Positions 1 to 17,639 of a stretch of 19,963 nt of DNA are shown here, piece by piece (the first letter of the stretch is position 1; every line of letters starts with the position of its first letter). The stretch comes from a virus. Its lineage: Duplodnaviria > Heunggongvirae > Uroviricota > Caudoviricetes. The notes under the pieces are model-generated. The model did not search any database. It had not been told where the DNA came from and worked only from the letters and a program-made list of their open reading frames with translations. Location: the IMG/VR virus record IMGVR_UViG_3300025162_000035. One strand, written 5' to 3'. Both the position numbers and the translations under genes were made by a program.

Positions 1-267
1 AGTAATTTTTATACACGAAGTGATAATTTTGATATTGATAGAAATAAAAAAAATATAAGAAGCATCGGCAAAATATGTGTGTGTGGAAATACAATAAAAA
101 GCGATTCGATGATGTGTGTTAAATGTAATAATATTTCGCAAAGAAAAGTTGAAAGACCAGAACACTCGATTTTAATTAAAGAAGTTAGTGAGATTGGATT
201 TTTAGCTACTGGGCGAAAATATGGGGTTAGTGATAACTCAATTAGAAAATGGATTAAAAAAGGATAG
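1..267 (+). CDS. C-terminal fragment of a putative phage homing-endonuclease-like protein (Zn-finger plus HTH tail); 5' truncated by window edge
   Basis: Frame open from base 1: ...CVCG...CVKC...RPEHSILIKEVSEIGFLATGRKYGVSDNSIRKW, a tail typical of phage HNH endonucleases. The catalytic domain is not visible. Stop TAG at 265-267. Confidence 0.55.
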   Translation, partial: SNFYTRSDNFDIDRNKKNIRSIGKICVCGNTIKSDSMMCVKCNNISQRKVERPEHSILIKEVSEIGFLATGRKYGVSDNSIRKWIKKG

Positions 268-346
268 GTTGAGCAACTGGCTGGCTCGGAACTCTGTAAA
301 AGTTTTGTCTTTATTGACCTTGGGGGTTCAAATCCCTCCCTATCCA
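262..346 (+). tRNA. trnY: tRNA-Tyr(GUA)
   Basis: Acceptor GGATAGG/CCTATCC, anticodon arm GAACT-CTGTAAA-AGTTT, long variable arm, T-loop TTCAAAT. Confidence 0.92.
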
Positions 347-444
347 CAAAATGCTGGGTCAAAAACAAGTAGGGTCTGCTAACCTGAACGGAGTATGATA
401 TGCAATCTTTAAAGATCAGGATAGCAGTTCTGGTTGGCGAAGTT

Positions 445-516
445 TTTTCTGTGGTGTAGAGGTAGCACGGCTGGCGGATGAGTCAGCAGGGATAAGTTCG
501 AATCTTGTTAGAAATC
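445..516 (+). ncRNA. tRNA-like RNA with non-canonical anticodon loop
   Basis: Acceptor TTTCTG/TAGAAA, D stem GTGT/GCAC, T arm ATAAG-TTCGAAT-CTTGT; anticodon stem GCTGGC/GTCAGC closes a 6-nt loop GGATGA with no U33. Confidence 0.65.
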
Positions 517-628
517 GATGGGGTTGAAGGCGATCAATAGGTCAACCAACGGATAATACCGTAAACCTTAAAGATGAAATCGTTACCATGGATAGAACGA
601 AAGTAATAACGAAGATCAGATATTTTAT

Positions 629-706
629 GTTAGGGTGCCTGAGCGGTCCAAAGGAAATGTTTGCAAAACATTAAAATCGGGGGTTCGAATCCCTTCCCTA
701 ACTCCA
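629..706 (+). tRNA. trnC: tRNA-Cys(GCA)
   Basis: Acceptor GTTAGGG/CCCTAAC, loop TTGCAAA, U73 discriminator, encoded CCA. Confidence 0.95.
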
Positions 707-820
707 GAATGAAGACATGGGTTCAAATCCCACTGTAGGCTTTCCAAAAAAGAACCATAGCACACACGAGGTGTAAGGTATAGCCTATATAGTTTAGATG
801 GGAGAACGTCAATCTTATTA
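707..820 (+). ncRNA. Circularly permuted tRNA-like gene A (3' half before 5' half)
   Basis: 3' half 708-746 (T-loop TTCAAAT, TGTAGGC, CCA) precedes 5' half 783-820 (GCCTATA-TA-GTTT..GAAC). Acceptor strands pair 7/7. Confidence 0.7.
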
Positions 821-821
821 A

Positions 822-1004
822 GTGGTATTTTTTATTAATAGGAGTCTTCGTGAAAGTCGGTCAGAAATTCAAGGCAAAGCATCACAAGAGGATGTGGAAA
901 AAGCTAAAGGAATAAGTGGAAAAGCATTTACAGTAAGTGTTATTTCTGTTGTTATCGTATTACTTGGTTTAATAATCAATTTGGCATTTCATTTCATTAA
1001 GTAA
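822..1004 (+). CDS. Small hypothetical protein with C-terminal transmembrane helix
   Basis: 60 aa, GTG start, hydrophobic stretch AFTVSVISVVIVLLGLIINLAF. Confidence 0.55.
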   Translation: MVFFINRSLRESRSEIQGKASQEDVEKAKGISGKAFTVSVISVVIVLLGLIINLAFHFIK

Positions 1005-1017
1005 ATCAAATTAAAAT

Positions 1018-1108
1018 CCAGATGAAAACGTGGGTTCGAATCCCACTTGGTGGGGCTCCAAAAAAGAAACCCCCGCCTGTCGTTTAGTGGTTCAGGACAT
1101 CATCATAT
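1018..1108 (+). ncRNA. Circularly permuted tRNA-like gene B
   Basis: 3' half 1021-1060 (GATGA, GTGGG-TTCGAAT-CCCAC, GGTGGGG, CCA) precedes 5' half ~1071-1108 (CCCCGCC, D arm GTTT/GGAC, TCATC). TCATC/GATGA pairs 5/5. Confidence 0.72.
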
Positions 1109-1191
1109 GCTGTGTTACGCAAGCGGTCAAAGCAGTATCTCTTTCAAGGATATCCTTAATTGGTTCAGGGGTTCAAATCCCCTACACAGTA
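1109..1191 (+). tRNA. tRNA with Glu(UUC) anticodon and long variable region
   Basis: Acceptor GCTGTGT/ACACAGT, TATCT-CTTTCAA-GGATA, 14-nt variable region, T arm AGGGG-TTCAAAT-CCCCT. Confidence 0.85.
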
Positions 1192-1196
1192 CAATG

Positions 1197-1404
1197 CCCC
1201 TCTTAGCTCAGTCGGTTCAGAGCGTCTGGTTTAGACCCAGAACTTAACATTTTTAGTGAAGGTACCAATAAATCTTGTACAGGGTTTATTGGAAGAATAG
1301 TTAAATCTGCAAGGTAGATGACCCTGAATGTCTTACTAATAGTACTTAATGTAAGAAGATATGGTGTAGTCGAGGAGTCCAAGGTTCGAATCCTTGAGGG
1401 GGGA
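1197..1404 (+). tRNA. tRNA-Leu(UAG)-anticodon RNA with 138-nt insert in variable region
   Basis: Acceptor CCCCTCT/AGGGGGG, D stem GCTC/GAGC, TCTGG-TTTAGAC-CCAGA, T arm CAAGG-TTCGAAT-CCTTG at 1380-1396. Confidence 0.75.
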
Positions 1405-1410
1405 CAAAAT

Positions 1411-1482
1411 GGTGCGTTAGCTTAGTGGTTAGAGTAGCCCCACGTTCAGGGGTTGGCGGGAGTTCGAATCTTTCACGCACCG
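1411..1482 (+). tRNA. Atypical tRNA, GUU (Asn) anticodon, aberrant loop
   Basis: Acceptor GGTGCGT/ACGCACC, G73, GCCCC-ACGTTCA-GGGGT (C33 and C37 instead of U33/purine 37). Confidence 0.7.
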
Positions 1483-1574
1483 CTGTTTGATTTTAATAAG
1501 AAGAATGCTTTCTTAATGGATACAACATGTGAAGGAACCGACCGTTGGTCGAAAGATTAAAATCAAACGATTTT

Positions 1575-1584
1575 TTAATATATA
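1575..1584 (+). promoter_or_regulatory. TTAATATATA motif (putative phage promoter)
   Basis: Same motif recurs just upstream of many start codons on both strands. Confidence 0.5.
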
Positions 1585-1588
1585 TTGT

Positions 1589-1900
1589 ATGAAAATTAAA
1601 CGGTTTAACGAAATATCAGTTGGGCAGCCATGGGATAGTCAAGCGCACAGAGAATTTTCAATTGATATGAGTGTTGTAAAGGCTCACGATAGCACACCAA
1701 ATTATTTATCAATTATTAGAAGTATGATTAGAAAGGGTGAAGGTAAAGTTTGGGTGAATAATATTGAAGGTAATACAGCACACATTAGATCGTGGCAGTT
1801 TGATATTCTTGGTGATGCAACGGTTCCAGTTGAAGCATTAAAAGGTTTTAGTATGAAATCATGGACTACTAATAACGTAGCAAAAAAATTTGATATGTAA
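1589..1900 (+). CDS. Hypothetical protein, MKIKRFNE.../...KKFDM tagged family
   Basis: Start moved to ATG 1589 after the TTAATATATA motif; family N- and C-terminal motifs. Confidence 0.75.
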   Translation: MKIKRFNEISVGQPWDSQAHREFSIDMSVVKAHDSTPNYLSIIRSMIRKGEGKVWVNNIEGNTAHIRSWQFDILGDATVPVEALKGFSMKSWTTNNVAKKFDM

Positions 1901-2449
1901 CTATCCTTTATAAATTTTTATCATGTATGGTGGTATGTTACCTTTAATTCTAAACCCATGACCATATAAAGCACTATCCCCAAGAGAATTACCACAATCA
2001 ATATTACTGTGCAATCTTTTGTTTCTTAGTTGATCAGCATCTGGTTTTAAATGGTATATTGGTGCATCGATTTCATACACTGTAATTTTGTTGTATGGAT
2101 ATGACATTTCGCCAAATGTTTTAGCCATTGATGGAAAGAGTGACAAATATGTAAATCCTGGTTGGCTTTGCAAACTTTTTTTGGTTGATTCTTTGGTTTT
2201 CATCAACCCCTGATTCATTATATCATGTTCATCAGATGTTCCATGGTAAAGTTTAAGGCAAGCAAATTTGTTAGCTCTAAGGAATTTATTCACAGCTTCA
2301 ATATCTTTAGGTGTTGGGTCTTTGTAGAGCAAAGTTTTAAATGGCTCAGTTGTCATTGGATCAATAACCTTTGGGGTAAATGAAGTGGCAACTGGTGATA
2401 TTTTGTGCCCGATGTAGGAATTTTCGAATAGCTCAAATTTTGTGATCAT
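1901..2449 (-). CDS. Putative ADP-ribosyltransferase-fold protein
   Basis: LYHGTS...I...GL, then FTYLS...AKTFG and VYEID, matching the ART/Tpt1-like strand order; MITKFELFEN start. Confidence 0.55.
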   Translation of the reverse strand: MITKFELFENSYIGHKISPVATSFTPKVIDPMTTEPFKTLLYKDPTPKDIEAVNKFLRANKFACLKLYHGTSDEHDIMNQGLMKTKESTKKSLQSQPGFTYLSLFPSMAKTFGEMSYPYNKITVYEIDAPIYHLKPDADQLRNKRLHSNIDCGNSLGDSALYGHGFRIKGNIPPYMIKIYKG

Positions 2450-2486
2450 AAGCTATATATAATTTTTTATTTTTTATATATAGGCT

Positions 2487-3353
2487 ATGAAGTATTTGAA
2501 AACTTTTTTAGAATCAGCCGATAGTCCAGACCTTGTTGGAAGATTTTCACCAGCGGAAATGCGGACCGCAGCCACAAATGATGACCAATTTGCTGAAAAG
2601 TCAATGAGACCATTTGTTAAAGGCTGGTATGCTGGTAAAGCTGGTAAAGCATCCTCAGATTTGGAAGATATGATGAATGATAATCGATGGGGTACTATGG
2701 GAAGCAAATACGGAATATCTGATTATTTTTACAAAAATCTTTTATCTAAAGTCCCAGAATTTGAAGGATGTAAATTAAGAGTCGATGATAATAAAGAAGA
2801 TGGCAAAATTGGTTTTTATGTTGGTAAAAAACACCGAATTATAGGGACAAAATATGAAGCAGCATTAGAAATTTGGGTTCATTTTCATACAAAATATATT
2901 AAAGTATTCAACTATGAAAAAGGAAAAATAAAACTTCTTTTTTCTTGTGGAACAAACGATGCTATTGAAGGCTCAATTAATAGGGCTGATACACAAGATG
3001 AAGATAAATTATTCGATAAGATTTTGACTGATATTTTAAAAGATCATCCTGACAAAAAATACTCAACATCATTACAGGTCTATGGTAAAAATTTAAATAA
3101 GGATTCATTCTTAAAAAAATTGCCACAAGTCAGAAAGGACTTCAAATATTTTGAAAATTACGTTATTCCTCAGGCAATATTTGAATTTCAGGAACATCTT
3201 TATTTGAATAATTTTCCAAGGTTTTTTGAATTAATAATGCATAGTGATGATAAATCGTATGATGATATATCACCAAGAATTCTTGCAAAATATAAAAATC
3301 AAATACCACAAAAAATTAAGGTTGGAGTAAGTTCCGCCAGATTCGATTTATGA
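2487..3353 (+). CDS. Hypothetical protein, MKYLKTF.../...RFDL family
   Basis: 288 aa ORF with family termini. Confidence 0.85.
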   Translation: MKYLKTFLESADSPDLVGRFSPAEMRTAATNDDQFAEKSMRPFVKGWYAGKAGKASSDLEDMMNDNRWGTMGSKYGISDYFYKNLLSKVPEFEGCKLRVDDNKEDGKIGFYVGKKHRIIGTKYEAALEIWVHFHTKYIKVFNYEKGKIKLLFSCGTNDAIEGSINRADTQDEDKLFDKILTDILKDHPDKKYSTSLQVYGKNLNKDSFLKKLPQVRKDFKYFENYVIPQAIFEFQEHLYLNNFPRFFELIMHSDDKSYDDISPRILAKYKNQIPQKIKVGVSSARFDL

Positions 3354-3733
3354 GAATAGTAAAATTTAATGAGAAATTGTCAACTGCTGAAGTTGAGTTT
3401 GCGGAAAGTTTCAAAGGTTCTTTGAGCGGTGATATTACTGATTATATTTTAACAGTGTATAAAGAAACCAAATTACCGAAAGAAGAAATAAATGACATTT
3501 TTAATTCAAAATATATTGAAAAATATTTAAGTGTTGATCAGGATATTCAAAAACTCGAAAAACAAATAGAAAATCTTACTAAGAATAAAGATTACTATGA
3601 ACTTGATGCCACCTCTGAAGCAGTTTATTTATTACAGGAAAAATTAATCTTCAAAGATTTCGCAAGTTTATATCGTTTGTATATGGATCGTAGAGGTAGT
3701 GGTGGGTTTGATCCTGATAATGATGAAGAATAG
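3350..3733 (+). CDS. Hypothetical protein (MRIVKFNE start)
   Basis: 127 aa, ATGA overlap with upstream gene. Confidence 0.8.
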   Translation: MRIVKFNEKLSTAEVEFAESFKGSLSGDITDYILTVYKETKLPKEEINDIFNSKYIEKYLSVDQDIQKLEKQIENLTKNKDYYELDATSEAVYLLQEKLIFKDFASLYRLYMDRRGSGGFDPDNDEE

Positions 3734-3828
3734 GTCGAATCTGCGTGAAGAAAGATAAGTTTTTAAACGTTTATCAATTTCTTCACGATATTTTTCTAAT
3801 ATTCTTGGGTGAAGGTCATAAAGTGAAT

Positions 3829-4273
3829 ATGATAAAGAAATTCAAAATATTTGAAAATCGTGATCGGTCTGAAGAAGTCCTATTAGGTCAAATTGTATTT
3901 AAATTTGATGAATTGAGAACTACTGGATTTTTTAATTGATCATATTATTCGCAAGTTTGATTTGAATTGGTACAATTGCTTAAAAACAAAGGATTCCCCA
4001 AAAATAGAATATGGTGATTATATATATTATGATGGGTTTGTTAATCCTAAAGTAATCAAAAATGTTGAAGCAACCTTTCAGGGTGTTAAGTTCAAAAGAT
4101 TGAACGTTAATCTTAAGAGTAGCTTTAATTATACATTTCAAGATGATGAAGGATATTACATAAGCAAGGACGTAAATATTCCAATATCAATGTTAAAAAG
4201 TTATTGGGATTCATTTCAAATGTATAAGATCGATGTCACCAATTATTTTAATTATCAAAAGTTCGATCTTTAA
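3829..4273 (+). pseudogene. MIKKFKIFE.../...KFDL family gene split by a +1 frameshift near 3916-3934
   Basis: Frame 1 MIKKFKIFEN...KFDEL stops at 3937; frame 2 is open from 3917 (ELLDFLIDHIIRKFDLNWY...QKFDL). Confidence 0.6.
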
Positions 4274-4285
4274 TCAGTTACTTAT

Positions 4286-4357
4286 GGCGAGGTAGTTCAG
4301 AGGCAGAACAGTTGAATCATAATCAACAAGTCGGGATTTCGAAATTCCCTCTCGCTA
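4286..4357 (+). tRNA. tRNA with CAU anticodon (elongator Met or Ile2)
   Basis: Acceptor GGCGAGG/TCTCGCT, GTTGA-ATCATAA-TCAAC; lacks initiator GGG/CCC stem. Confidence 0.88.
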
Positions 4358-4521
4358 CAAATTAGAAAGTTCATATCAAATATAATAAAAAAATTAAAAT
4401 TGAATAAATGCAGAACGGCAGTATGCGGTTGTGTGCAGCGGGGATCGTGACCCTAACCGTCAACAGTTCGACTCTGAACGGGCATGGTTAGCAATATCAC
4501 AACTTTACTCAGTTTTTTCAT

Positions 4522-4594
4522 GGGCTCTTAGTATAATTGGTTAGTATAGGTCCCTGATAAGGATCAGACCTTGGATCATTCCCAAGAGAGCCTA
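4522..4594 (+). tRNA. trnI: tRNA-Ile(GAU)
   Basis: Acceptor GGGCTCT/AGAGCCT, GGTCC-CTGATAA-GGATC, T-loop ATCATTC. Confidence 0.85.
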
Positions 4595-4604
4595 CTTCCC
4601 AAAT

Positions 4605-4681
4605 CCAGATGTATCCGCTCACTCTTATAAGGTGTAGAAACGGTAATTGGTCACATGAAGGTTCGATGCCTTCCATCTGGA
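4605..4681 (+). tRNA. Rearranged tRNA, Ile(UAU) anticodon, no conventional D arm
   Basis: Acceptor CCAGATG/CATCTGG, CACT-CTTATAA-GGTG, T arm GAAGG-TTCGATG-CCTTC; AATTGG D-loop motif lies 3' of the anticodon arm. Confidence 0.72.
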
Positions 4682-4686
4682 CAAAT

Positions 4687-4759
4687 GGTCGGTTAGGATA
4701 ATAGGTGAGTCTGCATGCCTTATAAGCAAGCGATGGGGGTTCAAAGCCCTCACCGACTA
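4687..4759 (+). tRNA. trnI: tRNA-Ile(UAU)
   Basis: Acceptor GGTCGGT/ACCGACT, loop CTTATAA, T arm GGGGG-TTCAAAG-CCCTC. Confidence 0.85.
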
Positions 4760-5788
4760 CAAAGAAACACAGGTTGTTGGTTTACAATTATTATAAAATT
4801 TTTCATTCATACTTTTATTATATTGAAAAGAAATATAATCATTTTCTTCACAGTATTTTTCTAATGATTCTTTTTTGGGTATAATTGTTTTATAATAATA
4901 ATCCCATTTCCTTTGTAAATCTTTATTAGATATTATTGTCTTACATTCAACAATATAAATTCCTTGTGTTGTTGTTATTTTGAAATCTGGGTTATATTTT
5001 TTGGTTATACCATCAATTACAAAATTTATTAAAAAATTACATCTTTCTATATTTAAAACTACAAAATTTTTCTCAAAGTAATTCAAACAACTATATTCAA
5101 CTTTAGAATCACATCTTATTAATTTATCCTTGTATTTATAGCGGCATTTTATACTTTTTAATTTTGGTTTAAATATGCCATCTTTTATTTTATTGCTCAC
5201 AAGTTTAGATAAATTTTCTTTTATTTCTTTTGTCATTGAACCTTTTGATGCACAACTAACACTACAATATTTTTGTTTATTTCTTCTTACCCATTTAGAT
5301 TTGTATTCTTTATGACAGTATTCACAATTTTTTTCAACATATTTTGGATTTGTGTTTTTTATAGTCTTTATTTTAATTTTTTTATTTTCAAATCTTTTTT
5401 TAGATGCACAACTAACACTACAAAATTTCCTATGCCTGACACTCCATTTTAATTCAAATTCTGAATTACAATATAGACACACTTTTTTAATTGTATCTGG
5501 TAAGCCTTTTTTTAAAGTGATTCTAATTTTATTTTTTGTTTTTTCTGGCATTTTTTTATTTTTATTAGTTTTTGATGCAGAACAAGACATCGAACAAAAA
5601 GTATTCCTTCTTTTATCATATTCAATTATATTTGAACAATTTAAACATAATTTTGGTTTTTTATTATAAATATCTATTCTATTTTTTTTAAGAACTTTTA
5701 TTTTCTCTAAAGATTTTTGGTTAGCCTTTTTATTATTTTCGAAAATTTTACCAGATTTATAATAATCCGAATTTTTAATACTTGCCAT
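4757..5788 (-). CDS. Putative free-standing endonuclease: three Cys4 Zn-binding repeats plus C-terminal TnsA-like PD-(D/E)XK domain
   Basis: Three CxxC...F/YCSxSC repeats; C-terminal RCDSKVE...YNPDFKI...YIVECK. Confidence 0.7.
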   Translation of the reverse strand: MASIKNSDYYKSGKIFENNKKANQKSLEKIKVLKKNRIDIYNKKPKLCLNCSNIIEYDKRRNTFCSMSCSASKTNKNKKMPEKTKNKIRITLKKGLPDTIKKVCLYCNSEFELKWSVRHRKFCSVSCASKKRFENKKIKIKTIKNTNPKYVEKNCEYCHKEYKSKWVRRNKQKYCSVSCASKGSMTKEIKENLSKLVSNKIKDGIFKPKLKSIKCRYKYKDKLIRCDSKVEYSCLNYFEKNFVVLNIERCNFLINFVIDGITKKYNPDFKITTTQGIYIVECKTIISNKDLQRKWDYYYKTIIPKKESLEKYCEENDYISFQYNKSMNEKFYNNCKPTTCVSL

Positions 5789-5869
5789 CGTTTTTTAGTT
5801 TATATATAAAATAAAAAAAGTCGTATTTATTCAACTCGAACTCAAATTTTCAATTTATAGGCACAAAAA

Positions 5870-5944
5870 GGATATATAGCTCAGTTGCGTTAGAGCGCAT
5901 CGCTGATACCGATGAGGTCGTAGGTTCAAGTCCTACTATATCCA
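5870..5944 (+). tRNA. trnI: tRNA-Ile(GAU)
   Basis: Acceptor GGATATA/TATATCC, CATCG-CTGATAC-CGATG, T arm GTAGG-TTCAAGT-CCTAC. Confidence 0.93.
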
Positions 5945-5949
5945 CATAT

Positions 5950-6022
5950 TCCTCCTTAGCTCAGTTGGTAGAGCAGCAGTCTGTTAAACTGCGGGCCGCT
6001 GGATCGTGACCAGCAGGGGGAG
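5950..6022 (+). tRNA. trnN: tRNA-Asn(GUU)
   Basis: Acceptor TCCTCCT/AGGGGGA, G73, GCAGT-CTGTTAA-ACTGC, T-loop ATCGTGA. Confidence 0.92.
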
Positions 6023-6025
6023 CAA

Positions 6026-6409
6026 TTAAAGATCAAATTTTTTACCAGTGGTTTGGCTTTTAATATCTTTAAGTAATTGGATGATTTCAGGTGTAGGATC
6101 GTGGATTACAATTTTTCGGAAGTCTGGAATTTTGGCACCCATCGGTGCGCCATTATAATCGAAGTTCACCCAGACCCCGTCTCTATCATCACTTTGAATT
6201 TTTGTGATCACTTTTTTTATATTTGGAGTTTTGGTTGAATCATAGAACGAGATCGTTCTACCTACAATTAGTTTATTCAGATATTCCATAAAACGTTTGA
6301 AGTCGTAGGTATCTTCTTTGGAATGCCCGAATAATTTTCTTAGATCGGATATATGGAAGTAGGTTCCAGTGTCTGATGGTCGTTTAAAGTCTTCGAATAT
6401 TGTGATCAT
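6026..6409 (-). CDS. Hypothetical protein, paralog of the 9986-12834 array family
   Basis: Start reassigned to MITIFEDF at 6409; F.I.D...F, L..L.VG.TI and I.IHD.P...KKFDL motifs shared with array members. Confidence 0.8.
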   Translation of the reverse strand: MITIFEDFKRPSDTGTYFHISDLRKLFGHSKEDTYDFKRFMEYLNKLIVGRTISFYDSTKTPNIKKVITKIQSDDRDGVWVNFDYNGAPMGAKIPDFRKIVIHDPTPEIIQLLKDIKSQTTGKKFDL

Positions 6410-6506
6410 ACAGTATATATTATTTTTAAATTCAGAATGTTTGTCTGTGATTGGGTGCACCACGCAGATAATAAATGGAAAAATGTGGTTAGAGCCCACC
6501 GTTCTG

Positions 6507-6583
6507 AGCGTGGCGTAGCTGAAGTCCAAGAAAGAGTGTAGGTGATAGTGACAAATGTGGGTTAGACTCCCACCGCATACGCT
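6507..6583 (+). ncRNA. Degenerate tRNA-like element
   Basis: T arm GTGGG-TTAGACT-CCCAC, bulged acceptor AGCGTGGCG/CGCATACGCT, TAGCT start; no clear anticodon arm. Confidence 0.35.
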
Positions 6584-6585
6584 AT

Positions 6586-6930
6586 TTAAAGATCAAATCT
6601 TTTAGTTATCAAATTTCGATTATAATTTTCAATTGCTTTTTTTGCTGCACGAATATCGGGCCCACGATAAAGGACTTTAAGTGGATTATCAGTGACTTCG
6701 GTATAAACTCCTGTTGGGAGTCGATACATTTTCCATTTTCTTTTTGTAGCTTTTGTATTTAGATCAAAAACATCAGCAGAAGTTATTATCCCGTAACCAT
6801 TATCATAGGTTTTTGTTATTTTTACAATTAGTAGATCACCATCATCACAAAGTAAAGAGAAATAATCGCCTTCAGCAAAAGATGCTATTTTGGATATATC
6901 TGACATATAATTTTCAAACTTTTTGATCAT
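6586..6930 (-). CDS. Hypothetical protein, MIKKFE.../...KRFDL family
   Basis: 114 aa, family termini. Confidence 0.8.
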   Translation of the reverse strand: MIKKFENYMSDISKIASFAEGDYFSLLCDDGDLLIVKITKTYDNGYGIITSADVFDLNTKATKRKWKMYRLPTGVYTEVTDNPLKVLYRGPDIRAAKKAIENYNRNLITKRFDL

Positions 6931-6952
6931 ATTCTATATATAAAAAAGAAAT

Positions 6953-7022
6953 TGAGAAAATGCCAACAGGAACGTAACCAACAACGGGCTTGAACCGTGA
7001 AACATCAACTGGCATTTTCTCA
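6953..7022 (+). ncRNA. Divergent member of the ACAGCAA anticodon-stem-loop ncRNA family
   Basis: 13-bp outer stem TGAGAAAATGCCA/TGGCATTTTCTCA, ACAGGAA motif, inner hairpin ACGG-GCTTGAA-CCGT. Confidence 0.5.
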
Positions 7023-7029
7023 CCTATAA

Positions 7030-7141
7030 GGGATTATAGTTTAATGCACCTATAACGGGATTCCAAAAAAGATGAAAGGGGTGTAGGTAGAATTCTGGGG
7101 CGCATAACCCAGCGATATGGGTTCGAGTCCCATTGCTCCCG
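7030..7141 (+). tRNA. Atypical CAU-containing (initiator-like) tRNA with enlarged D loop
   Basis: Acceptor GGGATTA/TGCTCCC (6/7), CTGGG-GCGCATAA-CCCAG, T arm ATGGG-TTCGAGT-CCCAT, ~47-nt D-loop region. Confidence 0.55.
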
Positions 7142-7147
7142 CAAATG

Positions 7148-7175
7148 AAAAAGCCAATCTTTCGATTGGCTTTTT
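7148..7175. terminator. Bidirectional intrinsic terminator
   Basis: AAAAAGCCAATC-TTTC-GATTGGCTTTTT between convergent units. Confidence 0.85.
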
Positions 7176-7186
7176 CTAAAATTTAG

Positions 7187-7933
7187 TTAGTTTTGTAATA
7201 CCCAGAAGTCATAAGCAAGACCTTTGGTGAAGTAAGTGTATGGTAAATAAAAATATCCATGATCACCCCAGCTTGCGCCCCAAGAATTTCGGCACACAAA
7301 CCATTTCTTATCATCATTATAACCGATTATAAGGACAGCATGACCACCTAAAAGTTGTTCACTTTTTTTTGGTAGTGGAACTTTGCCAGTTTTTGCTACT
7401 GCGGCTGATTCAAATGATTCATAAACATCCATCCCAGTTAAAACTGGTTTTTGTTGAAGAACCAAAACTTGTTTAATTTGATCCTGAGTTGCTACTGAAA
7501 TATATGATTTTATTTTATATTTCAAAGCATTTGTAACGGCAGCGTTTGTTGGGGTAACAGCAAATTTTGTGATATCATATGGGAAATAAGACTCTTCACA
7601 GATACCATAAGTTTGCATTGCTTTACCAATGTCCCTCATTTGTGCTCCACCGTCTTGAGAAATGTCACCTTCAATCTTTCTTTCTTCGAAATATTGAAAA
7701 AGACGAGAAAGATTAACTGTTAATTTATTTAGCATCACTCGTGCAGCAACACCAGCGTTAGCAGTGCAGCTACCCAATTGTCCTTGGTCATATACAAGTG
7801 GGCATTGTGCAATTAGAGTGAATATTTTGGGTATTGTAATTTTAACTGAAGGGTGTATATCTAACACGGATTTTAATTGAAGGTCCCTTTCATCTGGGGT
7901 TTGCTTCTTTAAATTATATATGTGGTTTGCCAT
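7187..7933 (-). CDS. Papain-like cysteine peptidase (C1 family)
   Basis: DQGQLGSCTANA (Gln, Cys), GGHAVLIIGY (His), RNSWG (Asn); start reassigned to MANH at 7933. Confidence 0.92.
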   Translation of the reverse strand: MANHIYNLKKQTPDERDLQLKSVLDIHPSVKITIPKIFTLIAQCPLVYDQGQLGSCTANAGVAARVMLNKLTVNLSRLFQYFEERKIEGDISQDGGAQMRDIGKAMQTYGICEESYFPYDITKFAVTPTNAAVTNALKYKIKSYISVATQDQIKQVLVLQQKPVLTGMDVYESFESAAVAKTGKVPLPKKSEQLLGGHAVLIIGYNDDKKWFVCRNSWGASWGDHGYFYLPYTYFTKGLAYDFWVLQN

Positions 7934-7962
7934 AGTTTTTTTTTTTATTGTATATATTAATT

Positions 7963-7970
7963 TACCTTTG
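7963..7970 (+). promoter_or_regulatory. Bacteroidota-type -7 promoter element TAnnTTTG
   Basis: TACCTTTG ending 17 nt upstream of ATG 7987. Confidence 0.45.
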
Positions 7971-7986
7971 TACAAAATGTGAATTT

Positions 7987-8373
7987 ATGAGCCCAGATGC
8001 ATATATGAAATATCAAATTGAACAGCTTCATAAGCTGTTTCGTGAGATTGGTATTGATCAGTATACTCACGGTATGCCACCAATGGGGGAAGAGGATATG
8101 GGTCCTCACTACAATTCATATGTATTTAAGGCACCTCTTGCTGAAAATAGAAAAGTAAATGGTAAAATGTGCTATCTTCGAGGAGATTTTAGAATTCATC
8201 TTAACAGTGATACAAATTATATCACTGGTGTATATTTCTGTCATGTTTGGTTTCCTAATGGTCGAACCGATGAAATTAGGTCTAAAGATATTATGGGTGT
8301 AAAAAAGTTCATTGAAAAATATGAGCACGTATTCAATCCAAAGATTAAAATTCAAAAACGTTTTGATTTATAA
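7987..8373 (+). CDS. Hypothetical protein ending KRFDL
   Basis: Start reassigned to ATG 7987; family C-terminus. Confidence 0.75.
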   Translation: MSPDAYMKYQIEQLHKLFREIGIDQYTHGMPPMGEEDMGPHYNSYVFKAPLAENRKVNGKMCYLRGDFRIHLNSDTNYITGVYFCHVWFPNGRTDEIRSKDIMGVKKFIEKYEHVFNPKIKIQKRFDL

Positions 8374-8375
8374 CG

Positions 8376-8618
8376 TTATTTTTTCTTTAGAAGTTCAATC
8401 TCTTCTTTTAAAAGATTCATAATAATAGTATCATTTTTTAATTGTAAATGATTTAGGCTATCATTGATTTTAATAGCTTTGTTGTTTTCATCTGCCATCT
8501 TATTTGTTGCTTGCATTATATTCCTATTTTCTCCAAAGTAATCAACAGCAAATAACCCACCAATAATAAGCACAACAAATAGAATAAATAATAATATATT
8601 ATCTTGAATATTTTTCAT
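8376..8618 (-). CDS. Small membrane-anchored hypothetical protein
   Basis: N-terminal hydrophobic helix ILLFILFVVLIIGGLFAV followed by coiled-coil-like region. Confidence 0.7.
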   Translation of the reverse strand: MKNIQDNILLFILFVVLIIGGLFAVDYFGENRNIMQATNKMADENNKAIKINDSLNHLQLKNDTIIMNLLKEEIELLKKK

Positions 8619-8660
8619 TCGAGGTTTTATTTGTATATAGTAATTTTTGAAAGTTCAAAT

Positions 8661-8750
8661 GTACAGTTAGTCAAGAGGTCGAAGACATCAGACTGTTAAT
8701 CTGACGCAGCGAAAGCTCCACCATAGGTTCAAATCCTATACTGTACGCCA
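8661..8750 (+). tRNA. tRNA with Asn(GUU) anticodon and long variable arm
   Basis: Acceptor GTACAGT/ACTGTAC, G73-CCA, TCAGA-CTGTTAA-TCTGA, variable hairpin AGC-GAAA-GCT. Confidence 0.88.
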
Positions 8751-8756
8751 TTAAAT

Positions 8757-8841
8757 GCACCGTTATCCGAGTGGTCGAAGGAATCAGGTTGTTACCCTGC
8801 CGAGCTACGGCTCCACGTGAGTTCGAATCTTACACGGTGCG
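8757..8841 (+). tRNA. tRNA with Asn(GUU) anticodon and long variable arm
   Basis: Acceptor GCACCGT/ACGGTGC, CAGG-TTGTTAC-CCTG, variable hairpin GAGC-TACG-GCTC. Confidence 0.85.
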
Positions 8842-8842
8842 C

Positions 8843-8911
8843 ATAAGTGTTTTTCACGAAAAGTGGTTAATTTTAACCACTTTTCACGAGAAATAAGCAT
8901 TTTTCACAAAA
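8843..8911. repeat. 13-bp perfect hairpin with three TTTTCAC direct repeats
   Basis: GAAAAGTGGTTAA-TT-TTAACCACTTTTC (8858-8885); TTTTCAC at 8851, 8881, 8901. Confidence 0.6.
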
Positions 8912-8913
8912 TT

Positions 8914-8981
8914 AGGATTGAAGGATACACACAGCAACTAAAAAAACTTGACTGTCAATCAAACAACACGTATCCTGTTCT
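8914..8981 (+). ncRNA. ACAGCAA-family ncRNA copy 1, Asp(GUC) anticodon loop
   Basis: AGGATAC/GTATCCT stem, ACAGCAA, TTGA-CTGTCAA-TCAA. Confidence 0.75.
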
Positions 8982-8990
8982 TAAAAAATT

Positions 8991-9060
8991 GAGGATAAAG
9001 AATACCTACAGCAATTAAAAAACTTGTCTGCAAAACAAACCAATGCGTATTCTGTTTCTC
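8991..9060 (+). ncRNA. ACAGCAA-family ncRNA copy 2, Cys(GCA) anticodon loop
   Basis: AGAATAC/GTATTCT stem, ACAGCAA, TTGT-CTGCAAA-ACAA. Confidence 0.75.
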
Positions 9061-9085
9061 TTTTTTTATTTTAATATATATGTTC

Positions 9086-9649
9086 ATGAAGTATATTAAA
9101 ATGTTTGAAGAAATGAAATCGTGGGATATTGCTAAGTATTTCGAAGAGTTGAGAGATGCGATGACTGCTGGCAAATTGGATAAAGTAAATAGTATTATTT
9201 TTGAAGCCCCTGACGTTGTTTTTTGGCAAGATAATGATAATAGTGCTGGATGGACAGCTCTTATGTGGGGGGTGGCTGACCACACTGACACAAAAGTTGA
9301 CATAATCAAAGTCTTAATTAATGCTGGGTCTAATGTTAATGCTACTGATAATTTTGGATGCACTGCTTTAATTCATGCCGCAACTATTGATTTAGATAGA
9401 TCAACTGATAAACATCAAGCCTTAGGACAAACTAAAGAAATTCTTAAATTGTTATTAGATTCTGGTGCTAATCCATATATTAAAGATTTTGAACCAGATG
9501 AGGATGAAAAATATTATGTAAATTATACAGGCGGAGAGGATTGGTATGATCATGCGACTCCAGATATTAAACAATGGATTGAAGAAAATTGCCCAGAGTT
9601 TTGGGCAAAGAAGAGACGTGAATTGGCTCAGAAAAGGTTTGATTTATAA
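9086..9649 (+). CDS. Ankyrin-repeat protein with MKYIKMFEE/KRFDL termini
   Basis: GWTALMWG...IIKVLINAGSNVNATDNFGCTALIHAA...ILKLLLDSGANPYIKD. Confidence 0.9.
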   Translation: MKYIKMFEEMKSWDIAKYFEELRDAMTAGKLDKVNSIIFEAPDVVFWQDNDNSAGWTALMWGVADHTDTKVDIIKVLINAGSNVNATDNFGCTALIHAATIDLDRSTDKHQALGQTKEILKLLLDSGANPYIKDFEPDEDEKYYVNYTGGEDWYDHATPDIKQWIEENCPEFWAKKRRELAQKRFDL

Positions 9650-9668
9650 TCGTAAAAATTATTTATAT

Positions 9669-9753
9669 GTTGCATTATGCAAGCGGTTAAAGCAGTAAGG
9701 CTCTCAACCTTACCCCTTTACAGGGTTCGTGGGTTCAAATCCCACATGCAATA
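9669..9753 (+). tRNA. tRNA with Glu(CUC) anticodon and long variable arm
   Basis: Acceptor GTTGCAT/ATGCAAT, TAAGG-CTCTCAA-CCTTA, variable hairpin CCCT-TTAC-AGGG. Confidence 0.87.
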
Positions 9754-9754
9754 C

Positions 9755-9827
9755 TGAGATTAAAGAAAACTTACAGCAATTCACAAAAATTTGACTCTTA
9801 ATCAAACCAATCAGTTTTCTGTTCTCA
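9755..9827 (+). ncRNA. ACAGCAA-family ncRNA copy 3, Lys(CUU) anticodon loop
   Basis: AGAAAAC/GTTTTCT stem, ACAGCAA, TTGA-CTCTTAA-TCAA. Confidence 0.75.
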
Positions 9828-9830
9828 AAT

Positions 9831-9904
9831 GCTCCCATCGTCTAATGGTTAGGACATCAGGTTTTCATCCTGAAGATTTGCGGGTTCGAGCCCCGCTGGG
9901 AGTA
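9831..9904 (+). tRNA. trnE: tRNA-Glu(UUC)
   Basis: Acceptor GCTCCCA/TGGGAGT, TCAGG-TTTTCAT-CCTGA, T arm GCGGG-TTCGAGC-CCCGC. Confidence 0.93.
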
Positions 9905-9985
9905 CTTAGATAAAAACCATTATTGAACTTTTATTCTGATAAATGGAAAAAAGGAAGAAATATGAAATTCAGAACATATTTATAA

Positions 9986-10408
9986 CTACAAATCAAATCG
10001 TTGTTGGGTTTTTTGTCGTTCTATTTCTGTTAGAACATTTTTTGCAAAAGCACGAAGCTCATCATAAATGAATAATACTGTAGTGTCGTCAAGGGCGTAT
10101 GCCATTTCAGAACCATCAGAATTTGTAATTCCATCAAAATATACTACCCAAAGCAGACTTCGATCTTTATCCTTATTAAAAAATGCTTTATTGTTTTTTT
10201 CTAAATCTATTTTTGAAACAATACCATGTTGCTCAATACTATCTGATCGTCTCAAATGAATTTCTTTATTCAGAAGTAATGATCGTAGAAATTTTTCTTC
10301 TTTATATGAATCCCAATCTTTTTTTGATGTTATATAATCAAACACATCACAAATATTTACGGTGTATTTATGTTTTTTATATTCTTCAAATAGTTTAATA
10401 TGTATCAT
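9986..10408 (-). CDS. Tandem-array paralog (MIHIKLFE/QRFDL)
   Basis: Family termini and core motifs. Confidence 0.88.
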   Translation of the reverse strand: MIHIKLFEEYKKHKYTVNICDVFDYITSKKDWDSYKEEKFLRSLLLNKEIHLRRSDSIEQHGIVSKIDLEKNNKAFFNKDKDRSLLWVVYFDGITNSDGSEMAYALDDTTVLFIYDELRAFAKNVLTEIERQKTQQRFDL

Positions 10409-10791
10409 AGATCAAATCTATTTTCTGTTTTACGTTTTCTTATTTCGTTGAACACTTTCTTTGCTTCTTCAGAAATTTCATCATAAACACCAATTTTAGT
10501 GGTTAGCCCTATAACTGCGGATGTTGTTTTTGTACCAAAGTAAAAATAATAAACGTCAATTTGTGGATGTTTAATGTTGGTAAGAATTTTTTCTACAGAT
10601 AAATATACTCCGCTTGAAAGAAGCCTAATCTTTTTACCTATCAAATTTTTTTCTATAAAATCTTCTGACCAATATAGATGATGAAGTGGGCTCACATCAA
10701 AATATGAATCTAATTCCCCAATGGTAAATAAAAATTTTGGGGAGCCAATATCTAAATTATCTAAATCTTCAAATAATTTCAAATATCTCAT
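10405..10791 (-). CDS. Tandem-array paralog (MRYLKLFE/NRFDL)
   Basis: Family termini; ATGA overlap. Confidence 0.88.
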   Translation of the reverse strand: MRYLKLFEDLDNLDIGSPKFLFTIGELDSYFDVSPLHHLYWSEDFIEKNLIGKKIRLLSSGVYLSVEKILTNIKHPQIDVYYFYFGTKTTSAVIGLTTKIGVYDEISEEAKKVFNEIRKRKTENRFDL

Positions 10792-11198
10792 AGATCAAAT
10801 CTTTTTTGAATGTTAATGTTGGCAATTATCTTTCTTAAATCGTTTGGAATTTCGTCATAAATATCTATTGTATTTTCTCTATTCGGATAGACCCACGAAT
10901 CATCTTCCATTAGAAAGTAGTATGCGAATTTATCATTTTGAATCCTAACATCAATATTAATTACATCTTTAGGTTTAAGGGTGATATTGTTCACCAATAT
11001 AGTTTTATGAAGTAGAGTTTTTCTTAAGAATATTGTTATAAGATCAATAGCATCCCATTCCATATCTGGCACTATTTCATTCCATTCTGGTGATACGACA
11101 CCACGCTTATATTTGGTTGATGTAAAAAATGATTCTATATCTCCAATATTAATTGAATATTTTGGTGTAGTGTCTTCAAATAACTTCAAATATTTCAT
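10788..11198 (-). CDS. Tandem-array paralog (MKYLKLFE/KRFDL)
   Basis: Family termini; ATGA overlap. Confidence 0.88.
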   Translation of the reverse strand: MKYLKLFEDTTPKYSINIGDIESFFTSTKYKRGVVSPEWNEIVPDMEWDAIDLITIFLRKTLLHKTILVNNITLKPKDVINIDVRIQNDKFAYYFLMEDDSWVYPNRENTIDIYDEIPNDLRKIIANINIQKRFDL

Positions 11199-11635
11199 AG
11201 ATCAAATCTTTTTCCTATAAATGTTGCTGATAAGTTTTTCATATATGGCTGGTTATATAGTTTATCAAAACTCCCAATGACTTTAAATCTATCGATTTCT
11301 GTTAATGATTTTTTCACTAATTCTTTCTCCTGAATTGGTATTAAATAAGAAACATCATCATTTGCAAAAGTTCTTTTTAAATATTTTTCTAACTCATTTC
11401 TATTTTCTACAGATAAAGATTTTTTTGATATTCTATATGTTTCTAAAAAAATTCCGTCTAAATTTATTATGAGTGCTTGCTGGTGTGACCAATTTTTCAT
11501 ACTTGTATAATAAGTAAACCTGATATTATCGAGATTAAGTAACCAATAATTTATTTCTATGGTTTTTTGTAATTCATAGAATATTTTTTTCAAAGGTTCC
11601 ATATCATAGCTTTCAAATAATTTCAAATATTTCAT
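11195..11635 (-). CDS. Array gene with family termini but divergent core
   Basis: MKYLKLFE/KRFDL; lacks the clear IYDEIP motif of its neighbours. Confidence 0.85.
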   Translation of the reverse strand: MKYLKLFESYDMEPLKKIFYELQKTIEINYWLLNLDNIRFTYYTSMKNWSHQQALIINLDGIFLETYRISKKSLSVENRNELEKYLKRTFANDDVSYLIPIQEKELVKKSLTEIDRFKVIGSFDKLYNQPYMKNLSATFIGKRFDL

Positions 11636-12437: not shown

Positions 12438-12450
12438 ACGTTATTATTTT

Positions 12451-12834: not shown

Positions 12835-12866
12835 ATCGATATATATAAAATATCAAAATAAAAAAT

Positions 12867-12943
12867 GCCTCACTATTGGCCCAGTTTTCGAAACTGGAGA
12901 CGCATAACGGATGAAAATGTGGGTTCGAATCCCTCGTGAGGTA
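12867..12943 (+). ncRNA. tRNA-like element with replaced D/anticodon region
   Basis: Acceptor GCCTCAC/GTGAGGT, T-loop TTCGAAT; centre is hairpin CCAGTTT-TCG-AAACTGG plus a poorly paired CGCATAAC. Confidence 0.55.
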
Positions 12944-12952
12944 CAAATAAAT

Positions 12953-13027: not shown

Positions 13028-13084
13028 CAAATCAACTTCCAAGATTTTTTTTTCCATTTTCTTTTTTTTTATCCATTTTACTGT

Positions 13085-17630: not shown

Positions 17631-17639
17631 TTAAAAATT

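What the first reader, a model, noticed from the sequence alone, without database searches (positions are those of the whole stretch)
1197..1404. 208-nt tRNA: UAG anticodon, class-I body, 138-nt structured domain in the variable loop
Seen: complete acceptor, D, anticodon and T arms flank an insert at 1242-1379. The insert has hairpins CCAATAA/TTATTGG (1265-1292), ATCTGC/GTAGAT (1305-1319) and TCTTAC/GTAAGA (1331-1356). CAGGGT (1280-1285) is complementary to ACCCTG (1321-1326), suggesting a pseudoknot. Established: bacterial tRNA-Leu normally has a modest variable arm, and bacterial tRNA introns sit in the anticodon loop. Inference: a tRNA fused to a functional RNA domain, such as a small ribozyme or intron, a protein-binding module or a ribosome effector.
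Basis: partly seen in the sequence, partly recalled or inferred. Interest (0 to 1): 0.82.

Follow-up and report, generated by a model that had tools for sequence, protein, structure and literature searches.

The report
Phage tRNA gene with 133-base insert
A giant freshwater bacteriophage carries a perfectly formed transfer-RNA gene interrupted just after its anticodon arm by a 133-base stretch that matches nothing known; whether this piece stays in the RNA as a giant arm, is cut out, or has killed the gene is still open.

Summary
The core observation holds. Window 1197-1404 is a complete class-I cloverleaf: 21 of 21 stem pairs, a canonical UAG anticodon loop and discriminator A73. A large insert splits it. 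Standard finders miss it.

The insert is best placed at 1242-1374 (133 nt), between tRNA positions 43 and 44.

Four sequence variants of this lake-phage lineage all carry the insert, with no length change.

Only one of the proposed structures rises above chance. The 12-bp hairpin at 1265-1292 appears in 1.4% of shuffles and has one compensatory pair in a diverged variant. The two 6-bp hairpins and the "pseudoknot" occur at chance frequency, and the variant data weaken two of them.

The insert matches no Rfam family and has no homologue outside this lineage. No RNA data were available.

My odds:
- Kept in the RNA as an oversized variable arm: 0.4.
- Intervening sequence that is cut out and rejoined: 0.25.
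- Inactivated gene: 0.3.

ARAGORN's intron mode gives a weaker alternative: an anticodon-loop intron and a UUA anticodon.

Earlier notes of this scan describe giant-arm tRNA-like genes on other DNA (an Asp-type family in Bacteroidota and their phages). This sequence is not one of them.

The parts
1197..1203 (+). acceptor stem, 5' strand (CCCCTCT)
   Evidence: Pairs 7/7 with 1397-1403 (one G-U). In L001/L002, C1198A gives an A.G mismatch at 2:71.
1206..1223 (+). D arm (GCTC/GAGC, loop with A14, G18G19), class-I type
   Evidence: The only change in any variant is C1213T, in the loop.
1225..1241 (+). anticodon arm: perfect 5-bp stem TCTGG/CCAGA, 7-nt loop TTTAGAC, anticodon UAG
   Evidence: Invariant in all variants that cover it.
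1242..1374 (+). 133-nt insert between tRNA positions 43 and 44; 34% G+C; no known family
   Evidence: No insertion or deletion in L001/L002 or in the X12 and X13 contigs.
1265..1292 (+). hairpin H1, 12 pairs, loop GTAC; the only substructure above chance
   Evidence: Shuffle test p about 0.014. In X13: 1270 A>C with 1287 T>G is compensatory; 1274 C>T and 1284 G>A keep pairing; 1288 A>T breaks one pair.
1305..1319 (+). proposed hairpin H2 (6 pairs); not supported
   Evidence: Chance-level length. In X13, 1305 A>C and 1307 C>G break two pairs.
1331..1356 (+). proposed hairpin H3 (6 pairs, 14-nt loop); untested
   Evidence: Chance-level length. No listed substitution in any variant that covers it; the X13 contig ends inside it, at 1346.
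1375..1379 (+). GAGTC, ordinary 5-nt variable loop (C1379 = position 48, partner of G15)
   Evidence: By hand it lines up with GGGTC/GGGCC of the nearest tRNA-Asn genes (sequences). ARAGORN draws it as the variable loop of the spliced form.
1380..1396 (+). T arm CAAGG/CCTTG, loop TTCGAAT
1397..1404 (+). acceptor 3' strand AGGGGGG plus discriminator A; no encoded CCA
   Evidence: G1399A in L001/L002 turns U.G into U-A. The X12 contig carries a different 3' strand after 1397.
1109..1192 (+). upstream neighbour: 84-nt tRNA with UUC anticodon, 4 nt before the element
   Evidence: Same order in L001 and L002.
1411..1483 (+). downstream neighbour: tRNA with GUU anticodon, 6 nt after the element

Best explanation
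My best reading is a live gene in the phage's tightly packed tRNA array, which is probably co-transcribed. It makes a tRNA-shaped RNA of about 208 nt. The body is a class-I tRNA, nearest to tRNA-Asn genes, that now carries anticodon UAG and discriminator A73. The 133-nt insert at position 43/44 stays in the mature RNA as an oversized variable arm.

SHOWN:
- An intact cloverleaf with a canonical anticodon loop.
- The insert has the same length in every variant.
- Hairpin H1 is under structural constraint.
- The gene is packed 4 and 6 nt from its neighbour tRNAs.
- Many tRNAs of this array have enlarged variable or D regions.

INFERRED:
- RNase P and the 3' trimming enzymes release the RNA as they release the neighbouring tRNAs.
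- The tRNA body supplies processing, CCA addition and stability.
- The arm projects from the core as class II arms do, and serves as a handle for a partner protein.

I cannot decide whether the RNA still decodes CUN codons or acts as a tRNA look-alike. The normal anticodon loop leans towards decoding competence.
For: - The cloverleaf has 21 of 21 stem pairs and all the universal tRNA nucleotides.
- My strict scan found no other such arrangement in 153 kb of held DNA.
- The element is identical in eight further contigs from separate assemblies (L014-L020, with only a change at 1196 just outside it in L016, and L024). The stretch is held by runs of 9 studies.
- All four variants keep the insert without any insertion or deletion, although X13 differs at 11 of 105 insert positions.
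- H1 is beyond chance (1.4% of shuffles). In X13 it has one compensatory pair and two pairing-compatible changes.
- In X12 the insert and T arm differ at 4 of 163 positions, while the acceptor 3' strand, the spacer and the next tRNA are far more changed.
- The array holds several tRNAs of 84-90 nt with long variable arms and non-class-II anticodons. It also holds a tRNA with a 43-nt D-loop insert, whose hairpin shows an A-U to G-C compensatory change in L002.
- LR756504.1, another huge uncultured phage, carries a 143-nt tRNA-like gene with a 75-nt variable-region insert.
- T4's tRNA cluster encodes a stable 139-nt RNA, rnaC, with a T arm, paired ends and long extra hairpins.
- There is no promoter-like or terminator-like site inside the element.
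Against: - No expression data could be obtained, so nothing shows directly that the insert is kept in the RNA.
- The insert folds no better than shuffles (z -1.1). It also does not spare the cloverleaf better than shuffled inserts do: 15% do as well.
- Its G+C (34%) is that of the genome background.
- No clear closing stem exists at its base. A 4-bp ACUU/GAGU stem is possible but costs 5.5 kcal/mol against the minimum-energy fold.
- It has no homologue outside this lineage.
- Between the window and L001 the spacers are as conserved as the element, so that conservation says little.
- The mosaic pattern in X12 and X13 may reflect recombination and not selection.
- L001 and L002 have an A.G mismatch at acceptor pair 2:71.
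- A 133-nt variable region has no published precedent that I found.
Confidence: 0.4

Rival explanations
1. The insert is an intervening sequence. It is cut out of the precursor and the two exons are rejoined by a protein pathway (an endonuclease plus a phage RNA ligase). The product is a 75-nt class-I tRNA(UAG).

A weaker version uses ARAGORN's boundaries. There the intron is 1233-1366 (134 nt), inside the anticodon loop between nucleotides 34 and 35, and the product is a tRNA(UUA) that would read the UAA stop codon.
For: - Every tested excision that leaves a 5-nt variable loop is called a normal tRNA-Leu(tag) by ARAGORN. ARAGORN's intron mode calls the gene as it stands.
- Under the anticodon-loop version the 5' exon ends in U and the intron ends in G.
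- Lak megaphages of Bacteroidota have predicted tRNA introns of unknown kind whose sequences are highly conserved (PMC6784885).
- Earlier notes of this scan report an RNA ligase and a CCA-type nucleotidyltransferase in this genome, and 3'-half/5'-half tRNA pieces in this window. I did not test either.
- In X13 the insert changes faster than the exons: 11 of 105 positions, against 1-2%.
- The insert's G+C and folding energy match the background.
Against: - No group I, group II or small-ribozyme family matches, even at E up to 10 in a 601-nt search. At 133 nt the insert is smaller than any group I intron I know of.
- By eye I found no bulge-helix-bulge motif at the junctions and no tRNA-like fold in the insert.
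- No allele without the insert appeared in any variant, and no joint across it in four DNA runs. The Lak introns, in contrast, are present or absent among close relatives.
- I found no report of a phage or bacterial tRNA intron at position 43/44.
- The anticodon-loop version needs a mature stem with a G.G mismatch while the 'intron' supplies a perfect one. It would also make a UAA suppressor in a genome where TAA ends 14 of 24 genes.
Confidence: 0.25
2. This is a tRNA gene inactivated by a neutral insertion. The insertion would be a by-product of the heavy recombination in this array, which is rich in homing endonucleases. It still looks perfect only because the event is young on the scale of the variants we can see.
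For: - The insert is an orphan with no family.
- Its fold is not beyond shuffles, and its compatibility with the cloverleaf is not significant.
- Spacers in the array are as conserved as the element between the window and L001.
- Substitutions in the tRNA body look neutral: one loop change, one pair improved, one pair broken.
- The window holds one HNH endonuclease gene (phrog_1271) and a cut-off 88-aa C-terminus that looked like a homing endonuclease to me but matched no family, plus loose tRNA fragments. A 288-bp block (821-1108) is present here and absent from L001.
- The X12/X13 mosaic shows frequent short-patch exchange.
Against: - All stems and all universal nucleotides are intact in the window type, and the anticodon loop is canonical and invariant.
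- The 133 nt show no insertion or deletion despite about 10% substitution in X13.
- H1 is beyond chance and keeps pairing through a double change.
- A second insert-bearing tRNA of the same array shows a clean compensatory change in its insert hairpin.
- In X12 the insert is much better kept than the adjacent tRNA.
Confidence: 0.3

Closest known systems
Class II tRNAs (bacterial tRNA-Leu, Ser, Tyr; Rfam RF00005)
   Same: A complete cloverleaf with extra RNA between the anticodon arm and the T arm. A73, as in tRNA-Leu.
   Different: Class II arms are one stem-loop of roughly 10-20 nt, with a class II D arm. Here the extra RNA is 133 nt, probably branched, has no clear closing stem, and sits on a class-I D arm. 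The body is no closer to the tRNA-Leu genes of two other huge phages (63%) than to other tRNAs.
'Enigmatic' tRNA introns of Lak megaphages (Devoto et al. 2019, PMC6784885)
   Same: Huge phages, with a Bacteroidota host (inferred here only). tRNA genes hold conserved inserts of no known class, and no Rfam class could be assigned.
   Different: The Lak inserts were predicted in the anticodon loop with eukaryote settings. Some look like tRNAs, and they are present or absent among close relatives. Here the best model puts the insert at 43/44, it is not tRNA-like, and every variant has it.
Phage T4 species 1 RNA (rnaC), a stable RNA of unknown function in the tRNA cluster
   Same: Encoded in a phage tRNA cluster. 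Has a canonical T arm, paired 5' and 3' ends, and long extra hairpins. Its size is 139 nt.
   Different: rnaC has no D or anticodon arm. The present element keeps the whole cloverleaf. I saw no sequence likeness, but did not run a formal comparison.
Giant-variable-arm, Asp-type tRNA-like genes of Bacteroidota and their phages
   Same: A full cloverleaf with a 45-150-nt domain where the variable loop should be. Occurs in huge phages and is missed by standard finders.
   Different: That family has a GUC anticodon loop with a pyrimidine at position 37, U1-A72 and a different D arm. My model of this insert finds nothing in the record that holds that example. The family exists only in unpublished AI notes.
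Group I introns in bacterial tRNA anticodon loops (e.g. cyanobacterial tRNA-Leu(UAA), between U34 and A35; from my own knowledge)
   Same: Under ARAGORN's alternative model the insert lies between nucleotides 34 and 35, follows a U and ends in G.
   Different: No match to the group I model. The insert is about 70 nt shorter than the smallest group I introns I know. A candidate P3 pairing is broken in three of the four variants. The alternative model also gives a poorer tRNA.

Membership tests
tRNA (Rfam RF00005) | Four-arm cloverleaf with the universal nucleotides (U8, A14, G18G19, U33, T-loop TTCRA) | tested here: met
   Read from the sequence. ARAGORN draws it once the insert is removed.
tRNA (Rfam RF00005) | Score at or above Rfam's gathering threshold (29 bits) over the whole gene | tested here: not met
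   Only 1197-1262 matches, at 23.9 bits. No hit at gathering score.
Class II tRNA (Leu/Ser/Tyr) | Variable arm is a single stem-loop closed at its base | tested here: not met
   The minimum-energy fold gives three separate domains. The only base stem possible is 4 bp and costs 5.5 kcal/mol.
Class II tRNA (Leu/Ser/Tyr) | Class II type D arm | tested here: not met
   The D arm is the common class-I type, TAGCTCAG..GAGC. The Leu tRNAs of LR756504.1 and LR756502.1 have a different D arm.
Group I intron | Conserved P3-P8 core (match to Rfam RF00028) | tested here: not met
   No hit at E up to 10 in 1000-1600.
Group I intron | U before the 5' splice site and G as the last intron base | tested here: inconclusive
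   Met only with ARAGORN's anticodon-loop boundaries. This is easily a chance match.
Archaeal/eukaryal protein-spliced tRNA intron | Bulge-helix-bulge motif at the two junctions | tested here: inconclusive
   None seen by eye at 1241/1242 and 1374/1375 or at 1232/1233 and 1366/1367. I ran no formal search.
Archaeal/eukaryal protein-spliced tRNA intron | Splicing endonuclease encoded or available | not testable with these tools
   No whole genome is held for this phage.
Lak-megaphage tRNA introns | Insert present or absent among close relatives | tested here: not met
   All four variants carry it, and no joint across it appears in four DNA runs.
Giant-arm Asp-type tRNA-like RNAs (scan notes) | GUC anticodon loop, U1-A72, non-class-I D arm | tested here: not met
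   Here the anticodon is UAG, the first pair is C1-G72 and the D arm is class-I. Compare LR756504.1:133313-133455.
Y RNA / YrlA (Rfam RF02553) | Match to the family model, and a Ro60 (TROVE) gene nearby | tested here: not met
   No Rfam hit. No TROVE domain among the 20 window ORFs scanned. The rest of the genome was not searchable.
tmRNA | tRNA-like ends without D or anticodon arms, plus a tag reading frame | tested here: not met
   ARAGORN's tmRNA search finds none. The element has full D and anticodon arms.

The most novel reading that the evidence does not exclude
The 133-nt insert stays in the mature RNA. That would give a tRNA with a normal, decoding-type UAG anticodon loop that carries by far the largest variable-region domain known.

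It would be the extreme member of a set of 'expanded' tRNAs in this phage, with enlarged variable arms and D loops. The extra RNA would give the phage's own tRNAs a handle for a phage factor, or shield them from host nucleases that cut tRNA.
Probability: 0.35. Interest if true: 0.8.

Novelty: new variant of a known kind. Interest (0 to 1): 0.58.

Why it matters
If the insert is retained, it would be a natural case of a tRNA body used as a carrier for another RNA module. It would also stretch what a tRNA core can tolerate well beyond class II arms, and it would raise the question of whether such an RNA can still be charged and enter the ribosome.

If the insert is removed, a virus of bacteria would be cutting and rejoining a tRNA at a site where I found no bacterial or phage intron reported. 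That would fit the loose tRNA halves in the same window and the RNA ligase that earlier notes report in this genome.

Either outcome can be read from one RNA-sequencing or northern experiment. If the gene is dead, the finding is ordinary.

Tried and rejected
SEARCHES FOR RELATIVES OF THE INSERT THAT FOUND NOTHING
- IMG/VR: four exact patterns and two neighbour proteins.
- JGI metagenome contigs: two patterns.
- GenBank phages by blastn.
- The window and all held loci.
- 100 relatives of MAG G001: chance-level hits only.
- A covariance model of the insert on LR756504.1, LR756502.1, G001 and 16 loci.
- The one hit in GTDB genomes (L024) is this same phage: a 2.7-kb contig binned into a Bacteroidales MAG. 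It is the only piece of this window found there, and the window sequence beyond the contig's end is absent from the MAG.

SYNTENY
- Relatives of the 182-aa and 288-aa neighbour proteins at about 50% identity do not keep the tRNA array next to them.
- The 103-aa neighbour has no further relatives.

EXPRESSION
- No RNA holder was listed.

IDEAS TESTED AND DROPPED
- A Cas6 substrate or CRISPR-repeat mimic. The phage has cas6 and cas3 genes and a CRISPR array, but its 36-nt repeat is no more like the element than like shuffles.
- A coding insert. Only short chance ORFs are present.
- An internal promoter or terminator. None was found.
- A tRNA-shaped intron. The insert has no T-arm-like motif and no paired ends.
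- A group I fold drawn by hand. A P1 with a U.G pair can be drawn, but the P3 candidate fails in three of the four variants.
- A target-site duplication. TAGACCCAGA and TAGTCGAGGA share only 6 of 10 bases.
- Selection for compatibility with the cloverleaf. Not significant.
- An alignment with tRNA-Asn genes to fix the insertion point. MAFFT misplaced the gap, so I placed it by hand.

Full report
WHERE THE WINDOW COMES FROM

The window is low in G+C (25-38%). From 262 to 13028 it holds a long array of tRNA and tRNA-like genes, 14 by default ARAGORN and 16 Rfam tRNA hits. Small ORFs of unknown function lie between them. The window also holds an HNH endonuclease gene, a papain-like peptidase, a GmrSD-like gene, and cas6 and cas3 genes.

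No whole genome is held for it. The stretch occurs in freshwater and lake metagenomes of 9 studies. Proteins about 50% identical to one neighbour gene lie on contigs of 614 and 640 kb. Earlier notes of this scan call it a huge T4-like phage with a Bacteroidota host. I did not test that. I found only that a 2.7-kb copy of this region was binned into a Bacteroidales MAG, which is weak evidence for the host.

THE OBSERVATION

Read directly, 1197-1404 has:
- a 7-bp acceptor stem, CCCCTCT/AGGGGGG, with one G-U;
- U8 and A9;
- a 4-bp D stem with A14 and G18G19 in the loop;
- a perfect 5-bp anticodon stem, TCTGG/CCAGA, with the loop TTTAGAC (U33, anticodon UAG, A37);
- a 5-bp T stem with the loop TTCGAAT;
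- discriminator A, and no encoded CCA.

Default ARAGORN and Rfam at gathering score miss it. A permissive Rfam run finds only the 5' part, at 23.9 bits. When I removed the insert in a script, ARAGORN called a 75-76-nt tRNA-Leu(tag) for every excision that left a 5-nt variable loop.

I also wrote a strict scan for a cloverleaf with a long variable region: acceptor 7/7, D 4/4, anticodon stem 5/5, U33, a T arm, and a total length of 96-420 nt. Over 153 kb of held phage DNA on both strands it returned only this element. A chance origin of the tRNA body is therefore very unlikely.

WHERE THE INSERT SITS

The body is nearest to tRNA-Asn genes. The top four of about 110 tRNAs compared are all tRNA-Asn, at 67-71% identity. 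The margin over Val and Lys (65-67%) is small. The body is not closer to the tRNA-Leu genes of two other huge phages (63%), and its D arm differs from theirs.

C1379 can act as position 48 opposite G15. I therefore place the insert at 1242-1374, 133 nt, between positions 43 and 44.

ARAGORN's intron mode can place introns only in the anticodon loop. It offers a second reading: an intron at 1233-1366, between nucleotides 34 and 35, anticodon UUA, and stem TCTGG/CGAGG with a G.G mismatch. That cloverleaf is poorer. It would also make a UAA suppressor in a genome where TAA ends 14 of 24 genes. I treat it as a minor variant of the intron rival.

STRUCTURE OF THE INSERT

The insert alone folds at -29 kcal/mol, z -1.1 against shuffles. 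The whole element folds at -59 kcal/mol, z -2.05, with the cloverleaf present in the minimum-energy structure.

- The hairpin at 1265-1292 has 12 contiguous pairs. A stem that long appears in 1.4% of shuffles.
- Helices of six or more Watson-Crick pairs number 3, against 2.1 expected. So the hairpins at 1305-1319 and 1331-1356 and the proposed pseudoknot (1280-1285 with 1321-1326) are no more than chance gives.
- The native insert does not spare the cloverleaf significantly better than shuffled inserts: mean pair probability 0.78 against 0.64 +/- 0.135, and 15% of shuffles do as well.
- A 4-bp stem, ACUU/GAGU, could close the base of the insert as in a class II arm. It costs 5.5 kcal/mol.

VARIANTS

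1. The window type is identical over 1100-1500 in six further contigs from separate assemblies and in the MAG contig. An eighth contig differs only at 1196, just outside the element.

2. L001 and L002 come from a lineage whose neighbouring proteins are 68-80% identical. They differ at five positions:
   - C1198A makes an A.G mismatch at acceptor pair 2:71;
   - C1213T lies in the D loop;
   - C1274T keeps a G-U pair in H1;
   - T1329G;
   - G1399A turns U.G into U-A.
   However, the spacers of the array are also 95-100% identical between these lineages, while the ORFs are 79-90% identical. This conservation therefore does not single out the element.

3. Laying contigs of four further DNA runs gave a contig in X12 that covers 1235-1397. 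It has 4 differences and then a different acceptor 3' strand, spacer and next tRNA.

4. The same call gave a contig in X13 that covers 1197-1346 with 14 differences and no gaps. Ten of the differences cluster in 1270-1311.
   - In X13, H1 keeps its pairing through A1270C with T1287G (A-U becomes C-G), through C1274T and through G1284A (U.G becomes U-A). It loses one pair by A1288T.
   - Hairpin 1305-1319 loses two of its six pairs.
   - G1284A weakens the proposed pseudoknot.

No variant lacks the insert or changes its length, and no joint across it was seen. The opposite patterns in X12 (insert kept, flank changed) and X13 (flank kept, part of the insert changed) show short-patch recombination. 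That weakens any argument from conservation alone. It also implies that more distant copies exist in nature.

WHAT THE INSERT IS NOT

- No Rfam family matches at E up to 10 in a 601-nt search. That covers group I and II introns, the small ribozymes, YrlA and tmRNA.
- No homologue turned up in IMG/VR, JGI contigs, GenBank phages, 100 relatives of the MAG, or two complete huge-phage genomes searched with a covariance model.
- It is not repeated elsewhere in the window.
- It is not like the phage's own CRISPR repeat.
- It holds no convincing ORF, promoter or terminator.

CONTEXT THAT BEARS ON THE MECHANISM

- Several tRNAs of this array are 84-90 nt long, with long variable arms on anticodons that are not class II (UUC, CUC, GUU).
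- The tRNA at 7030-7141 has a 43-nt insert in its D loop. The closing hairpin of that insert shows a clean A-U to G-C compensatory change in L002.
- LR756504.1, another huge uncultured phage, has a 143-nt tRNA-like gene with a GUC loop and a 75-nt variable-region insert. It also has a tRNA-Glu-like gene with a 114-nt D-loop insert.
- Phage T4's tRNA cluster encodes the stable 139-nt RNA rnaC, which has a T arm, paired ends and long extra hairpins.
- Devoto et al. 2019 report conserved 'enigmatic' introns in tRNA genes of Lak megaphages. These were predicted in the anticodon loop and are present or absent among relatives.

Insert-bearing and enlarged tRNA genes are thus a recurring trait of huge phages. 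Whether the extra RNA is kept has not been shown in print for any of them.

VERDICT

I rank three readings.
- Retained oversized variable arm on a live tRNA-shaped RNA: 0.4.
- Intervening sequence removed by a cut-and-rejoin route: 0.25.
- Inactivated gene: 0.3.

Retention comes first for four reasons. The best cloverleaf puts the insert exactly where class II arms emerge. The array shows a general trend towards enlarged arms, with structural covariation. No allele without the insert exists. No splicing signal of any known kind is present. The margin is small because there are no RNA data, the insert is an orphan, and most of it shows no sign of a selected fold.

This sequence has not been noted before by the scan. 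Earlier notes describe a different, Asp-type family of giant-arm tRNA-like genes in Bacteroidota and their phages. I found one apparent member in LR756504.1, and the present element fails that family's defining features.

Noticed in passing
window 7030-7141; L002:5214-5404: A tRNA (Rfam 32 bits) with a 43-nt insert in the D loop and an 8-nt anticodon loop, GCGCATAA. The insert's closing hairpin CACC..GGTG becomes CGCC..GGCG in L002, a compensatory A-U to G-C change.
   Followed up: partly
window 1109-1192, 8661-8750, 8757-8842, 9669-9754: tRNAs of 84-90 nt with long variable arms, one capped by a GAAA tetraloop. Their D arms look like Ser- or Tyr/Leu-type class II arms, but their anticodons are Glu (UUC, CUC) or Asn (GUU). 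If SerRS or LeuRS charged them they would miscode. They resemble the allo-tRNA idea of Mukai 2017 (PMC5389517), a paper I did not read.
   Followed up: no
window 707-820 and 1018-1108: Two units made of a T arm, an acceptor 3' strand and CCA, followed by a matching tRNA 5' half. The two units are paralogous (1017-1068 resembles the 707-758 unit). The block 821-1108, which includes the 60-aa ORF 822-1004, is absent from relative L001.
   Followed up: partly
LR756504.1:133313-133455, minus strand (L039:2314-2456:-): A 143-nt tRNA-like gene with U1-A72, anticodon loop CUGUCUC (GUC, with a pyrimidine at position 37) and a 75-nt insert in the variable region. It fits the Asp-type giant-arm family described in earlier notes of this scan.
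   Followed up: partly
LR756504.1 about 402172-402358, minus strand (L041:4673-4859:-): A 187-nt tRNA-Glu-like gene with an insert of about 114 nt in the D loop. The insert contains a T-arm-like hairpin, GTCAG-TTCGTTC-CTGAC.
   Followed up: no
L046:2144-2302 and L042:2633-2793 (LR756502.1 and LR756504.1): These huge phages encode tRNA-Leu genes of class-I length (74-76 nt, anticodons UAG, UAA, CAA, AAG) beside normal long-armed ones. All have a Leu-type D arm and A73.
   Followed up: no
window 16965-19963; L048:6231-7641: A phage-borne cas6 gene, a 192-aa gene and a cas3 gene, followed beyond the window by two large genes and a CRISPR array of about 20 repeats. The 36-nt repeat decays at its 5' end along the array.
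   Followed up: partly
G001:C72 (L024): A 2.7-kb contig identical to window 1-2460 is binned into an 'uncultured Bacteroidales' MAG of 4.7 Mb. It is the only piece of this window found there, and the window sequence beyond the contig's end is absent from the MAG. This is either a binning artefact or a weak hint at the host.
   Followed up: partly
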